From assembly GCA_945864585.1 (NCBI GenBank), contig CAMBCF010000005.1, positions 4,992 to 68,991 on the forward strand: DNA of 64,000 bases, given 5' to 3'. Numbering within the stretch: the stretch's first letter is position 1; each line of letters starts with the position of its first letter. The notes under the pieces were generated by a model. That model was given only the letters and a program-made list of their open reading frames with translations, was not told the origin of the DNA and ran no database searches. Below are positions 40,231 to 46,409 of the stretch, one piece after another. Source of the DNA: Bordetella parapertussis. GTDB taxonomy: Bacteria; Pseudomonadota; Gammaproteobacteria; Burkholderiales; SG8-41. Both the position numbers and the translations under genes were made by a program.

Positions 40231-41475
40231 ATGGTTCGCCTGGCAGACCTCTCGCCTTCCGATCAGGAAAACATGCTCAAAAAAGTTCCCACGCTTCCGC
40301 GCTTTGAGCAGCGCCCCTGGGCACGCGGCCCCAAACTCGCGCAGCGCCGCTTGGCGATCGTCAGCACCGCCGGTTTGCACGCGCGCGGTGACCGGCCGTT
40401 CGGTGGCGGCGGCATGGACTACCGGGTGATTGCCGGCGACATCGACGCCGGTGATCTGATCATGAGCCATATGTCGGTAAATTTCGACCGCAGCGGATTT
40501 CAGGAAGACTGGAATGTCGCATTTCCGCTGGATCGCCTGCAAGAACTCGCGCACGAAAAAATGATCGGTTCCGTCGCGGCATTTCACTACTCGTTCATGG
40601 GCGCCGTATCGCCGGTGACGAATTACCAAGCCAAAGCCGCCGAGCTTGCGCAATTGCTGCGCAACGACAAGGTTGACGCAGTATTGTTATCGCCCGTTTG
40701 ACCCAACTACACGTGCGCCGTCGGCGCACTCGGTCACTACCTCGAAGCCGCAGGCATACCCACCACGCAGATCAGTCTGGTACGCGAACACACCGAAGCA
40801 CTCGCGCCGCCGCGCGCGCTGTGGGTGCCCTTCATGCTCGGGCGTCCGTTCGGCGTGCCCAACGACGCTGCGTTTCAACGCAGGGTGCTGCTTGCCGCAC
40901 TGCAATTGTTCGAACGTGAATCGGGCCCCGTGCTTGAGGATTTTGCGCAAGACGCGCCGCATCAACGGTTAAGTTCGCCGCCTGAGAATCTGGTGTGCCC
41001 GGTCAGTTTCCCGCGCCTGCAGGCCGAGGGCGCACTGGCAGAAAAACTGGCCGACGAAGTATCGCAACTGCAAGCGTGGCACGAGGTGGCCGTCAAGCAT
41101 CGCGGCCGCACCACGCTGGGCGTCACTGGCATGCAGCCACTGCAAATCGTGGATTACCTCACGGCGTGGCTCAGCAATCAGCCCCCGCAGCCGTTTCGCA
41201 AGGATATATCACCCGGCGACGCCCTCAAGCAGGCGTGCGATGAACTCAAGGCTTTTTATCTGGAAGCCAAGGCTGTGCAACCGGGGCAGCACTCGGCAGC
41301 CAGTATTCAGCAGTGGTTCTGGATGGAAACCGCACTCGCTCAGGCTATTGTTCAGATACGCGCCATCGCGGCGAGCAGCGCTGAACCTTCCGTGAAAGGG
41401 GTTGCCGTGCAGAGCCTGGTTCCGCGCGCAATGGAAGCCGCTGTGCAGAAAAAGGCTGTTTCACAGAGCAGATGA
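40231..41475 (+). CDS. PrdB/GrdB-family (selenoprotein B-like) protein with in-frame UGA (predicted selenocysteine) at 40699-40701
   Basis: ORFs 40231-40701 and 40825-41475 share one frame; only interruption is TGA 40699; read-through ..DAVLLSPV-U-PNYTCAVGALGHYLEAAGIPTTQISL..; hairpin 11 nt downstream; AAAGGA RBS before ATG 40231. Confidence 0.8.
40713..40729 (+). promoter_or_regulatory. SECIS-like RNA hairpin
   Basis: GTGCGCC-GUC-GGCGCAC, perfect 7-bp stem starting 11 nt after UGA; GU at loop apex 18 nt past the UGA. Confidence 0.65.
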
Positions 41476-41554
41476 CCGTAAAACCCGTGCAAAATTAACC
41501 CGAGTAATCACATCGAAGTATAGAACGCCTGTCTTTCAAATAAAGGAAAACACA

Positions 41555-42115
41555 ATGATAAAACCGCTAGGCAATGACGATTTGTCCGACAAGCCGGGGG
41601 AAAGGATTATTGACAAGCCCGAACTGCCGGCCGCCGGCATCACCAATGAAAATGATCTGTTGACTGAAACCGTGAGCGGCCAGTTGCAGCTCAAGCGCAG
41701 CCAGTCAGGCAAGTTCGAAGTGTGGTGCGATGAGCCTGCGCGCATCGGCGGCACGGATACCTATCCGTCCCCAATGACGTATCTGGCGATGTCGATCGGC
41801 TTCTGACTGCTCACTCAGGTTGCGCGGTACGCGCACATGATGAAATTGAAAGTCAGCGACCCCAAATGCCGCGTAGTGATGCGCAAACACCTGGGTGGTT
41901 CCGTCATCAAAGGCACAGTGTTCAACAAGTGGGAGGGCATCAGTACCTATCTCACGGTCGAAAGCGACGAGGCTGAGGACAAGCTTGCGCATTTGATCAA
42001 AAACGCAAAAGCAGGATGCTTTGCGGAGGGACTGATCACCCAACAAGTTCCACTACACAGCCATGTCGAAGTAAACGGCAAGCCGTTTCAAATCGAAGGT
42101 GTTACGCAGAAATAG
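41555..42115 (+). CDS. OsmC/Ohr-family protein with in-frame UGA (predicted selenocysteine) at 41804-41806
   Basis: ORFs 41402-41806 and 41837-42115 share one frame; ..DEPARIGGTDTYPSPMTYLAMSIGF-U-LLTQVA.. puts UGA at the first conserved Cys column; second Cys kept in KNAKAGCFAEGL; RBS AAAGGAAAA before ATG 41555. Confidence 0.8.
41821..41835 (+). promoter_or_regulatory. SECIS-like RNA hairpin
   Basis: TGCGCG-GUA-CGCGCA, 6-bp stem starting 14 nt after UGA; GU at loop apex 20 nt past the UGA. Confidence 0.6.
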
Positions 42116-42150: not shown

Positions 42151-42528
42151 CTAATCTGCAAGCTTCTCGTAAGCCGCAACGTCCAGCAGCGCCCCCAACT
42201 CAGCCGGGTCGCTGAGTTTCATACGAAACAGCCACGCACCATATGGGTCTGTATTGACCGCTTCCGGCGCATCAGTGAGCGCTGGATTGATTTCAGTCAC
42301 CAGGCCCGAAGCGGGCGCATGTACGTCGGCCACAGTTTTGACGGACTCAATCACACCGCACGCTTCGCCCTGTCTGACCATGACGCCGGCAGCAGGAGGC
42401 TGCACGTAAACCACATCGCCCAACTGTTCCTGCGCGTGATAGGTAACGCCGACGATACAGCTATCGCCGGACTCCATCTTCAGCCAGGTGTGTGATTCAT
42501 GATACTTAAGATTCCCGGGGTTCAACAT
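42151..42528 (-). CDS. gcvH: glycine-cleavage-type H protein (lipoyl carrier)
   Basis: 125 aa; ..YHESHTWLK...GVIESVKTVADVHAPASG.. lipoyl-Lys motif; no gcvT/gcvP nearby. Confidence 0.85.
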   Translation of the reverse strand: MLNPGNLKYHESHTWLKMESGDSCIVGVTYHAQEQLGDVVYVQPPAAGVMVRQGEACGVIESVKTVADVHAPASGLVTEINPALTDAPEAVNTDPYGAWLFRMKLSDPAELGALLDVAAYEKLAD

Positions 42529-45041: not shown

Positions 45042-45605
45042 CTACCTGTGCAAGCGGCTCGTACGCGGTACCCCAATGAGCAAGTATTCCATTTGATCCG
45101 CCAGGATGTTTCGGTTCCGCAGGATAAAGTGCTCGTGCCTGGAGGGCGTGTAAGGCACATAAAGCAGCGGCATGCGCGCCTGCTCTGGCGTGCGATCCGC
45201 CTTTCTCCCGTTACAGGCCCGACACGCTGTGACCACATTCATCCAAACGTGCTTCCCGCCCCTTGAAACCGGTATCACGTGGTCGCATGAGAGTTCGCGG
45301 GTAGCAAAACGATTACCGCAATACGCGCACAGATGACGATCACGCGCGTAGAGCAGGTCATTGCCCAGCACCGGCACGCGCGCGAGCAAGCGTCCGGCAT
45401 GGCCCGCTCCACGCAGCGCCAAAATCGATTGCGTTTCAATACGTGAACGACGTCCATCGCGTTGCGTGCCGCCACGGTATTCGCAGACGCGGTTACCCGC
45501 CGACCAGGCCACAAGCTGCTTGGCGTGATACGTGATCGCCTCTTCGATACCCACCCAGGCCTGTGGCAGACCAGCCTGGTCCAGCATCAGAATCAATGTT
45601 TGCAT
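45042..45605 (-). CDS. HNH endonuclease
   Basis: 187 aa; ..CAYCGNRF...LSCDHVIPVSRGGKHVWMNVVTACRACNGRKADR.. Confidence 0.85.
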   Translation of the reverse strand: MQTLILMLDQAGLPQAWVGIEEAITYHAKQLVAWSAGNRVCEYRGGTQRDGRRSRIETQSILALRGAGHAGRLLARVPVLGNDLLYARDRHLCAYCGNRFATRELSCDHVIPVSRGGKHVWMNVVTACRACNGRKADRTPEQARMPLLYVPYTPSRHEHFILRNRNILADQMEYLLIGVPRTSRLHR

Positions 45606-45752
45606 TATTTTATCTCGTAACTATAACCGGTCGGCCGCTCTCACCGCCGACCAGTTTTGTTGCTATTGCGTAATTTGACATCGTTATGGACAATGTGTTC
45701 TACGACGAATTCTGCCTGCCGTTTCCGGCAAGACTGGATGTGGTTTACAGGT

Positions 45753-45831
45753 TGGTACCGTCGGCAGGACTCGAACCCGCATCCTCCGCGTTCGAAGCGC
45801 GGCACTCTGGTTCCAATTGAGTTACGGCGGT
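45753..45831 (-). tRNA. tRNA-Arg (anticodon UCG), CCA encoded; atypical A1-U72 and C5-A68 mismatch
   Basis: Hand-folded: ACCGCCG TA ACTC..GAGT G CCGCG CTTCGAA CGCGG AGGAT GCGGG TTCGAGT CCTGC CGACGGT A CCA. Confidence 0.7.
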
Positions 45832-45843
45832 GCAAATCTGAAT

Positions 45844-45918
45844 TGGTAGGCCCTGCAGGAATCGAACCTGCCTAATGCGGATTAAAAGTCCGCTGCCTCG
45901 CCAATCGGCCAAGGACCT
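45844..45918 (-). tRNA. tRNA-Lys (anticodon UUU), CCA encoded; A1-U72
   Basis: Hand-folded: AGGTCCT..GCGGA CTTTTAA TCCGC ATTAG GCAGG TTCGATT CCTGC AGGGCCT A CCA. Confidence 0.75.
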
Positions 45919-45928
45919 GAATTGATAG

Positions 45929-46005
45929 TGGGGTGACCGACGCGATTCGAACGCGCACCCGCTTGGTTCACAGCCAAGCACTCTGCCAGTTAAGCTACGA
46001 CCACC
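45929..46005 (-). tRNA. tRNA-His (anticodon GUG) with encoded G-1 opposite C73, CCA encoded
   Basis: Hand-folded: G-GTGGTCG TA GCTT..CTTGG CTGTGAA CCAAG CGGGT GCGCG TTCGAAT CGCGT CGGTCAC C CCA. Confidence 0.8.
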
Positions 46006-46017
46006 ATCGATAAAAAT

Positions 46018-46095
46018 TGGCTCCGGCCAGTGGAATCGAACTACTCTCATTCGCCGTTAACAGCGGCGCGCTTTCACCTTGAAAGCCAGACCGGA
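46018..46095 (-). tRNA. tRNA-Asn (anticodon GUU), CCA encoded
   Basis: Hand-folded: TCCGGTC TG GCTT TCAAGGTGA AAGC G CGCCG CTGTTAA CGGCG..TTCGATT..GGCCGGA G CCA; U1-A72 and G73 as in E. coli tRNA-Asn; starts 8 nt after the rtcB stop. Confidence 0.75.
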
Positions 46096-46103
46096 AACTA
46101 TGC

Positions 46104-46409
46104 CTACCCCTTCACGCACAGCACCTGTTTCAGGGTATGCACGATTTCGACGAGATCCGATTGCGCCGCCATCACGTCATCGATGGACTTGTACGCGCCC
46201 GGAATCTCATCAATCACACCGCTGTCCTTGCGATATTCCACACCAGCGGTTTGCTGTGCCAGGTCCGCTTGCGAGTAGCGGCGCCTGGCTTCACCCCGGC
46301 TCATGCGGCGCCCCGCGCCATGCGAACATGAGGCATACGCGTCAGCGTGCCCCTTGCCCTTCACGATGTAGGACTTCACTCCCATGCTGCCAGGGATGAT
46401 GCCAAGCGC
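46104..46409 (-). pseudogene. rtcB: RNA ligase RtcB, 3'-terminal remnant (about last 100 codons)
   Basis: ..LGIIPGSMGVKSYIVKGKG..SCSHGAGRRMSR..IDEIPGAYKSIDDVMAAQSDLVEIVHTLKQVLCVKG closely resembles the E. coli RtcB C-terminus; upstream the frame dissolves into the Bug fragment in another frame. Confidence 0.8.

What the first reader, a model, noticed from the sequence alone, without database searches (positions are those of the whole stretch)
41555..42115. Second split gene: OsmC/Ohr-family protein with UGA at the peroxidatic-Cys position
ORFs 41402-41806 and 41837-42115 share a frame (offset 435 = 3 x 145), interrupted only by TGA 41804-41806. From the RBS-preceded ATG at 41555 the read-through product has 186 codons: ..WCDEPARIGGTDTYPSPMTYLAMSIGF-[TGA]-LLTQVARYAHMMKLKV...LIKNAKAGCFAEGLI... 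This follows the OsmC pattern (DEP..GG.D..P.P..L.A....C), with the TGA at the first conserved Cys column. The second conserved Cys is retained in KAKAGC (E. coli OsmC reads QKAKAGCPVSQ). Fourteen nt after the TGA, a 6-bp stem TGCGCG/CGCGCA closes a GUA loop (41821-41835), resembling the hairpin in the neighbouring gene. Two UGA-plus-hairpin cases 1.1 kb apart are unlikely to be independent nonsense mutations.
Basis: partly seen in the sequence, partly recalled or inferred. Interest (0 to 1): 0.75.

Follow-up and report, generated by a model that had tools for sequence, protein, structure and literature searches.

The report
Known OsmC-like selenoprotein gene, correctly spotted
The apparent "split gene" is one intact gene for an OsmC-family redox protein whose in-frame UGA encodes selenocysteine; the selenoprotein family was described in 2005 and has a curated NCBI model, so the find is real but ordinary.

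Summary
ORF 41555-42115 (+) has one in-frame TGA (41804-41806), followed 14 nt later by a 6-bp hairpin (41821-41835).

With U written as C, the product scores 162 bits against NCBIfam NF041052 "OsmC-related (seleno)protein" (cutoff 95). It also matches Pfam OsmC.

HMMER alignments to three solved OsmC-like structures place their helix Cys on the UGA column. Cys155 aligns with E. coli OsmC Cys125.

In 80 related loci from uncultured Burkholderiales MAGs (62-96% identity), plus divergent paralogues, 89 of 89 copies keep TGA at this column.

Six codons over the hairpin are frozen at synonymous sites (entropy 0.10 bit or less, against a mean of 1.10 elsewhere). Divergent paralogues keep the stem through compensatory changes. 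Two Cys homologues with the same peptide have no hairpin.

TGA is an ordinary stop elsewhere in the window.

The U-x-x-T motif matches the OsmC-like selenoprotein family from the Sargasso Sea (PMC1088965).

I could not test for Sec machinery (selA/B/C/D): none lies in the window or the loci. The peroxidase-type function is inferred.

The PrdB-like selenoprotein neighbour is adjacent in only 3 of 80 loci.

Verdict: a real, already known kind of gene, usually mis-annotated as two hypothetical ORFs.

The parts
41543..41547 (+). Shine-Dalgarno-like AAGGA, 7 nt before the start codon
   Evidence: Read from the sequence. The ATG aligns with the N-terminal Met of homologues P0010 and P0014.
41555..42115 (+). 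Single CDS for an OsmC-related selenoprotein: 186 residues, Sec84, then a TAG stop
   Evidence: Translation. Pfam PF02566 46.1 bits. NCBIfam NF041052 162.2 bits against a cutoff of 95. 80 loci match query residues 1-186 contiguously.
41804..41806 (+). In-frame UGA = selenocysteine codon (residue 84) in a U-L-L-T motif, at the position of the helix Cys of OsmC-family proteins
   Evidence: TGA in 82/82 orthologous copies and 89/89 including paralogues. Cys at this column in 3cje, 2onf and 9wo1 and in P0001, P0003, P0004, P0005 and P0011. The UxxT motif is that of the known family.
41821..41835 (+). SECIS-type hairpin: 6-bp stem UGCGCG/CGCGCA with apical GUA (GGUAC if the closing G-C pair opens). 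The loop G and U lie 24 and 25 nt from the U of UGA.
   Evidence: Fold. Codons 89-94 are frozen at synonymous sites. Compensatory changes at 2 of 6 pairs, with 98.3% of cells paired. The hairpin is absent from Cys homologues encoding the same peptide.
42017..42019 (+). Cys155 codon (TGC) in NAKAGC, the putative resolving cysteine
   Evidence: Cys in 82/82 copies, with TGT and TGC both used. hhalign pairs it with Cys125 of E. coli OsmC, using a sequence I recalled from memory.
40231..41475 (+). Upstream same-strand PrdB/GrdB-like selenoprotein gene with TGA at 40699-40701 and a hairpin at 40713-40729. It probably shares a transcript with the OsmC-like gene in this genome.
   Evidence: Translation. 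PF07355 and TIGR04483 partial hits, below the equivalog cutoffs. Fold. TGA and hairpin are conserved in L001, L006, L052 and L011. Promoter-like sites occur only upstream of 40231; the gap to the OsmC-like gene is 79 nt.

Best explanation
Positions 41555-42115 are one gene for a cytoplasmic OsmC-superfamily redox protein of the NF041052 'OsmC-related (seleno)protein' family. UGA 41804-06 is decoded as selenocysteine. The hairpin 41821-35 lies inside the coding sequence and acts as the bacterial SECIS element. It would recruit SelB carrying Sec-tRNA(Sec) to the ribosome paused at UGA. Shown here: the gene is single and intact, the UGA is conserved, Cys occupies the same column in homologues, and the hairpin is under RNA-level selection. 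Inferred: Sec84 in the U-x-x-T motif on the long central helix takes the role of the peroxidatic Cys of OsmC/Ohr. It would attack a hydroperoxide or another oxidised substrate to form a selenenic acid. Cys155 would resolve this to a selenenylsulfide. A dithiol donor (thioredoxin or a lipoylated protein) would then reduce it. In this genome the gene is probably co-transcribed with the upstream PrdB-like selenoprotein gene.
For: Family membership: NF041052 at 162.2 bits against cutoff 95, E 7e-48, and PF02566 at E 7e-12. Solved OsmC-like proteins 3cje (E 3e-6), 2onf and 9wo1 align without gaps over the motif, with Cys on the UGA column. An AF2 model of the 49%-identical Cys homologue P0005 has 39 top Foldseek hits that are all OsmC/Ohr. 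TGA is kept in 82/82 orthologous and 89/89 total copies across 40-96% protein identity. Synonymous variation with no amino-acid change in codons 85-88 shows that the stretch between the TGA and the next ATG is translated. Codons 89-94 (GTT GCG CGG TAC GCG CAC) have synonymous entropy of 0.10 bit or less; the 84 other conserved degenerate columns have mean 1.10 and minimum 0.46. Stem pair 1 switches U-A to G-C, and pair 2 switches G-C to G.U, U-A or U.G; the covariation score is 0.348 against 0.131 shuffled, 0/500. Cys homologues L081 and L082 encode the same CLLTQVARYA peptide with codons that cannot form the stem. TGA ends 20 of 46 likely genes in the window, so the code is standard. An OsmC-like selenoprotein family with a UxxT motif and a SECIS was published in PMC1088965 and is listed in PMC13188914.
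Against: No selA, selB, selD or tRNA-Sec lies in the window or in about 1.1 Mb of related loci, so the decoding machinery is unverified for this organism. No Rfam SECIS family matches, though Rfam covers few bacterial SECIS types. The single-sequence fold is not exceptional (z -0.94). No member of this subfamily has a measured activity that I could find, so the peroxidase role is an analogy. A MAFFT alignment with a recalled E. coli OsmC sequence placed Cys59 two columns from U84; the HMMER alignments and the Pro-to-Cys spacing of 11 residues favour equivalence.
Confidence: 0.88

Rival explanations
1. It is a selenoprotein, but not a hydroperoxide reductase. On this reading the OsmC-like fold serves another selenol-based redox or transfer reaction, for example acting on a lipoyl or thiol carrier, or partnering the PrdB-like reductase.
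For: The protein belongs to the uncharacterised COG1765/NF041052 branch. It gave no hit to any NCBIfam OsmC or Ohr model at E <= 0.01. It has a conserved roughly 50-residue N-terminal extension (GERxIDKPELP) that lies partly outside the model. Neighbours in this window are a PrdB-like selenoprotein and a GcvH-like lipoyl carrier.
Against: Both redox positions of OsmC/Ohr are kept. Neighbours are not conserved: the PrdB-like gene is adjacent in 3/80 loci and GcvH lies nearby in about 5/80.
Confidence: 0.3
2. The UGA is recoded, but not to Sec. It could be read through as Trp or Cys by near-cognate or specialised tRNAs, with the hairpin merely stimulating read-through.
For: The Sec machinery is unverified. 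One relative (L083) carries TGG with an intact hairpin.
Against: The hairpin has the position and G-U apical loop expected of a SelB-binding SECIS (my knowledge of E. coli fdhF G23/U24; here G24/U25). Homologues carry Cys, never Trp, at a redox-active column. The L083 gene also carries a frameshift (P0007), so it looks damaged or mis-assembled. The family is curated as a selenoprotein.
Confidence: 0.04
3. It is a pseudogene or nonsense mutation, or two independent small genes (83 aa and 92 aa), as public gene calls have it.
For: Public annotation calls two 'hypothetical' ORFs. An ATG-ATG follows the hairpin at 41837.
Against: TGA is present in 89/89 copies down to about 40% identity, with purifying selection on both sides and across the TGA-to-ATG interval. 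Cys homologues are single chains. Neither half alone would contain a complete OsmC domain: the Pfam match spans residues 66-167.
Confidence: 0.01

Closest known systems
OsmC-like selenoprotein family (Zhang, Fomenko & Gladyshev 2005, Sargasso Sea; NCBIfam NF041052 'OsmC-related (seleno)protein')
   Same: OsmC-like domain, Sec in a U-x-x-T motif, a SECIS hairpin just downstream with G in the apical loop, and Cys-containing homologues.
   Different: Nothing essential differs. This copy comes from an uncultured freshwater or soil-type Burkholderiales lineage rather than marine plankton. That lineage carries several Sec paralogues per genome.
E. coli OsmC and Ohr (thiol-dependent organic hydroperoxide reductases; PDB 1qwi/1nye, 1usp and others)
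   Same: The fold matches. A redox residue sits on the central helix and a second Cys about 70 residues later in a (K/N)AKAGC-like motif.
   Different: Sec replaces the first Cys. There is no hit to NCBIfam OsmC or Ohr models. Structure-aligned identity is only 10-20%. The protein has an extra conserved N-terminal extension, and its activity is untested.
3CJE (Jannaschia sp. CCS1 Jann_2040) and 2ONF (Thermoplasma Ta0195), structural-genomics OsmC-like proteins
   Same: They are the closest solved relatives by sequence (E 3e-6 and 0.02) and by fold (E 1.7e-7 and 6.9e-6). Both have Cys at both redox columns.
   Different: They are Cys forms and have no known function either.
E. coli fdhF SECIS (SelB-binding hairpin)
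   Same: A hairpin inside the ORF just 3' of UGA, with G-U in the apical loop about 23-25 nt from the UGA (own knowledge; window geometry).
   Different: The stem is shorter (6 bp). The minimum-energy fold closes a 3-nt loop. I saw no bulged U. SelB binding is untested.

Membership tests
NCBIfam NF041052 OsmC-related (seleno)protein | HMM score above the curated cutoff | tested here: met
   162.2 bits against cutoff 95, E 7.1e-48, residues 37-175 on model positions 6-144 of 144 (U written as C).
NCBIfam NF041052 / OsmC-like selenoprotein (Zhang 2005) | Sec (or Cys) in a U-x-x-T motif | tested here: met
   U84-L-L-T87. The motif is listed as UXXT for the family.
OsmC/Ohr superfamily (Pfam PF02566) | Pfam domain match above the gathering score | tested here: met
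   46.1 bits against 27.5, residues 66-167 on profile positions 1-97 of 100.
OsmC/Ohr superfamily (Pfam PF02566) | OsmC-type alpha/beta fold | tested here: met
   Tested by proxy only. An AF2 model of the 49%-identical Cys homologue P0005 (pLDDT 79) has 39 top Foldseek PDB hits that are all OsmC/Ohr.
OsmC/Ohr superfamily (Pfam PF02566) | Two conserved redox cysteines: a peroxidatic one on the central helix and a resolving one about 65-70 residues later | tested here: met
   U84 aligns with Cys in 3cje, 2onf and 9wo1. C155 is invariant in 82/82 copies and pairs with E. coli OsmC C125 (recalled sequence). One MAFFT run displaced EcC59 by 2 columns.
OsmC/Ohr superfamily (Pfam PF02566) | Thiol-dependent hydroperoxide reductase activity | not testable with these tools
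   Needs an enzyme assay.
OsmC proper / Ohr subfamilies | Match to the subfamily-specific NCBIfam models | tested here: not met
   NF041052 was the only NCBIfam hit at E <= 0.01. The gene is therefore filed in the superfamily, not as OsmC or Ohr proper.
Bacterial selenoprotein gene | In-frame UGA conserved among orthologues, with Cys in more distant homologues at the same column | tested here: met
   89/89 copies have TGA. The Cys forms are P0001, P0003, P0004, P0005 and P0011.
Bacterial selenoprotein gene | SECIS hairpin immediately 3' of UGA, under selection as RNA | tested here: met
   Frozen synonymous sites, compensatory changes and absence from Cys forms.
Bacterial selenoprotein gene | Genome encodes selA, selB, selC (tRNA-Sec) and selD | not testable with these tools
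   None lies in the 64-kb window or the 80 loci.
Bacterial selenoprotein gene | Selenium physically present in the protein | not testable with these tools
   Needs 75Se labelling or mass spectrometry.

The most novel reading that the evidence does not exclude
An uncultured Burkholderiales lineage has expanded OsmC-like selenoproteins into multi-paralogue 'selenoprotein islands'. One 13.8-kb locus, L006, holds four Sec paralogues plus a PrdB-like selenoprotein. The PrdB-like protein, the OsmC-like selenoproteins and the nearby GcvH-like lipoyl carrier would together form a previously undescribed selenium-dependent reductase or detoxification module in aerobic Betaproteobacteria.
Probability: 0.1. 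Interest if true: 0.55.

Novelty: already known. Interest (0 to 1): 0.2.

Why it matters
The main value is for annotation. Public gene calls for this very contig and its relatives split the gene into two "hypothetical proteins", so selenoproteomes of environmental Burkholderiales are under-counted. The data also give a clean example of dual coding: a SECIS hairpin frozen at synonymous sites, with Cys-form controls that lack it. They also show strict retention of Sec (89/89 copies) in a family whose biochemical function remains untested. Nothing here changes what is known about Sec decoding or about OsmC proteins.

Tried and rejected
- **Structure prediction of the window protein.** I modelled the Cys homologue P0005 instead.
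- **Rfam.** The scan at a permissive E-value over 40650-41900 gave no SECIS family, only chance hits.
- **Sec machinery.** tblastn with E. coli SelA, SelB and SelD sequences recalled from memory found nothing in the window or the 80 loci beyond a weak GTPase hit. ARAGORN found no tRNA-Sec.
- **Conserved operon partners.** The PrdB-like gene is adjacent in 3/80 loci and GcvH lies nearby in about 5/80. A PaaI-like thioesterase sits upstream in 16/80, and Bug/TctC genes are adjacent in about 27/80. No universal partner exists. The first ORF clustering was swamped by spurious high-GC ORFs, and my first regex for the PrdB motif was too narrow.
- **Other in-frame-TGA genes in the window.** A scan found only the two already known.
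- **MAFFT with a recalled E. coli OsmC sequence.** It mis-registered the first Cys by two columns. I relied on the HMMER alignments instead.
- **Global TGA reassignment.** Rejected, because TGA ends 20 of 46 likely genes.

Full report
**1. Observation**

- An ATG at 41555 is preceded by AAGGA at 41543-47.
- The frame runs to TAG at 42113-15 and is interrupted only by TGA at 41804-06. That gives 186 codons counting the UGA.
- The mechanical ORFs 41402-41806 and 41837-42115 share a frame.
- Fourteen nucleotides after the TGA, TGCGCG (41821-26) pairs with CGCGCA (41830-35) around GTA. This hairpin is the core of the minimum-energy fold.
- Taken alone, the 60-nt fold is not better than shuffles (z = -0.94). 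The case therefore has to rest on comparison with relatives.
- One small slip: the window reads NAKAGC. KAKAGC is the E. coli motif.

**2. What the protein is**

I wrote the UGA as Cys for the searches.
- The product hits Pfam OsmC (PF02566, 46.1 bits against 27.5; residues 66-167 on profile positions 1-97 of 100).
- It hits NCBIfam NF041052 "OsmC_like_Se, OsmC-related (seleno)protein" much more strongly (162.2 bits against a cutoff of 95, E 7e-48). No OsmC-proper or Ohr model was hit.
- HMMER alignments to the solved OsmC-like proteins 3cje, 2onf and 9wo1 run without gaps through GGTDTYPSPMTYLAMSIGF-U-LLTQ. In each, the Cys lands on the UGA column.
- hhalign pairs Cys155 with Cys125 of E. coli OsmC, using a sequence I recalled from memory whose numbering fits the published Cys59/Cys125.
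- A MAFFT run with that recalled sequence put Cys59 two columns away from U84. The spacing from the conserved Pro to the Cys or Sec is 11 residues in both proteins, and the HMMER alignments agree, so I treat this as an alignment artefact. I still record it.
An AlphaFold model of the 49%-identical Cys homologue P0005 (pLDDT 79) places residue 84 on the long helix 73-95. Its 39 best Foldseek PDB matches are all OsmC/Ohr proteins.

**3. Is the UGA a real codon?**

- The protein search found full-length homologues at about 50% identity with GF-C-LLTQ (P0001, P0003, P0004, P0005, P0011).
- It also found many fragments that end exactly at ...SIGF or begin at MMK... These are the signature of gene callers stopping at a conserved UGA.
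- A scan of one genome per GTDB species returned 80 loci, nearly all from uncultured Burkholderiales or "Betaproteobacteria" MAGs. They are 62-96% identical, and each matches query residues 1-186 contiguously.
- Every one of the 82 copies has TGA at the same column. Adding divergent paralogues at 40-50% identity gives 89 of 89.
- Codons 85-88, which lie between the TGA and the hairpin, vary synonymously but never change the amino acid. That stretch is therefore translated.
- TGA ends 20 of 46 likely genes in the window, so the genetic code is standard.
- Together these results exclude a pseudogene, two separate genes, and a reassigned code.

**4. Is the hairpin functional?**

Three independent results say yes.

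(a) Synonymous-codon entropy, computed across the 82 copies.
- Codons 89-94 (GTT GCG CGG TAC GCG CAC) score 0.10 bit or less.
- The 84 other conserved degenerate columns average 1.10 bit, with a minimum of 0.46.
- GTT is the rarest Val codon at most other conserved Val columns of the gene. Here it is used in 79 of 80 cases, because its U pairs with the A of CAC.

(b) Divergent Sec paralogues change the stem but keep it paired.
- Pair 1 switches from U-A to G-C.
- Pair 2 switches from G-C to G.U, U-A or U.G.
- 98.3% of cells remain paired.
- The covariation score is 0.348 against 0.131 in shuffles (0 of 500 reach it). Registers shifted by 1 to 3 columns collapse.

(c) Cys homologues that encode the identical peptide CLLTQVARYA use different codons.
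- L081 uses GTC GCA CGT TAT GCG.
- L082 uses GTC GCC CGG TAC GCC.
- Neither set can form the stem.

The loop G and U lie 24 and 25 nt from the U of UGA. From my own knowledge, the SelB-contacting G23/U24 of E. coli fdhF sit one position nearer. The Sargasso Sea paper likewise marks conserved apical-loop guanosines. No Rfam SECIS model matched, which is unsurprising for a short hairpin specific to one lineage.

**5. What could not be shown**

- No selA, selB, selD or tRNA-Sec lies in the window or in the roughly 1.1 Mb of related loci.
- No activity data exist for this subfamily in what I could search.
- The proposed chemistry is inferred by analogy with OsmC/Ohr: the Sec84 selenolate attacks a hydroperoxide, Cys155 resolves the intermediate, and a dithiol donor recycles the enzyme.

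**6. Context**

- The window matches an ENA metagenome contig (k141_1328363, 91.7 kb). Its public gene calls split both selenoprotein genes into pairs of unnamed ORFs.
- Upstream on the same strand, after a 79-nt gap with no promoter-like site, lies a PrdB/GrdB-like gene (40231-41475). It has its own conserved TGA (40699) and a GUGCGCC-GUC-GGCGCAC hairpin.
- That pairing occurs in only 3 of 80 loci (L001, L006, L052).
- Other neighbours also vary. A PaaI-like thioesterase sits directly upstream in 16 loci, Bug/TctC genes are adjacent in about 27, and GcvH lies nearby in about 5.
It reflects a Sec-using organism rather than a fixed two-gene system.

**7. Comparison with what is known, and verdict**

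- OsmC-like selenoproteins with a UxxT motif and a downstream SECIS were reported from the Sargasso Sea metagenome in 2005 (PMC1088965).
- They are listed in a 2026 review (PMC13188914) and have a curated NCBIfam model that this protein passes easily.
- The finding is therefore real and correctly interpreted, but the kind of gene is already known.
- Residual interest lies in three points: the systematic mis-annotation, the strict Sec retention with paralogue expansion in these Burkholderiales, and the unknown function of the subfamily.

Noticed in passing
window 40231-41475 (+); TGA 40699-40701; hairpin 40713-40729: The PrdB/GrdB-like selenoprotein gene gives only partial hits, below the equivalog cutoffs (TIGR04483 89 bits against 300). 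Relatives L001, L006, L052 and L011 read U-P-N-C-T-C after the Sec, but the window reads U-P-N-Y-T-C (TAC for TGC). The window copy has therefore lost the first Cys of that motif.
   Followed up: partly
L006 2583-3080, 3283-3837, 5064-5600 (-), 10259-10804; L052 2281-2775 and 2860-3414: These are clusters of OsmC-like selenoprotein paralogues. L006 holds four TGA-containing copies in 13.8 kb next to a PrdB-like selenoprotein, and L052 holds two tandem copies. Several MAGs contribute two or more loci. This points to a lineage-specific expansion of one selenoprotein family.
   Followed up: partly
L083 472-474 (ENA forest-soil contig; protein P0007): This relative has TGG (Trp) in place of the Sec TGA while keeping the exact SECIS hairpin sequence. 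The same gene has a downstream frameshift. It is probably a damaged copy or an assembly error.
   Followed up: no
window 45042-46385 (-): A tight cluster of four tRNA genes (Arg-TCG, Lys-TTT, His-GTG, Asn-GTT; 45753-46095) is flanked by an HNH endonuclease gene and by short RtcB and TctC fragments, according to the public gene calls. ARAGORN finds four tRNAs, but Rfam reports only three at the gathering score; the Asn one is missing. This may be a mobile insertion.
   Followed up: no
window 41555-41806 and 41837-42115; 40231-40701 and about 40834-41475: Public gene calls for this contig and for 45 cluster members annotate the selenoprotein halves as separate 'hypothetical proteins' of 83 + 92 aa and 156 + 213 aa. 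This is a systematic annotation error in MAGs.
   Followed up: yes
window 42151-42528 (-): A GcvH-like lipoyl-carrier gene is convergent with the OsmC-like gene, 35 nt from its stop. It also lies nearby in L001, L006, L008 and L010. From my own knowledge, lipoylated proteins are the reductants of Ohr, so it could be the electron donor. The link is not conserved across the 80 loci.
   Followed up: partly
L058 9524-9988 and 15 other loci: In a sub-clade of 16 of the 80 loci, a PaaI/hotdog-like thioesterase gene sits directly upstream of the OsmC-like selenoprotein gene on the same strand.
   Followed up: no
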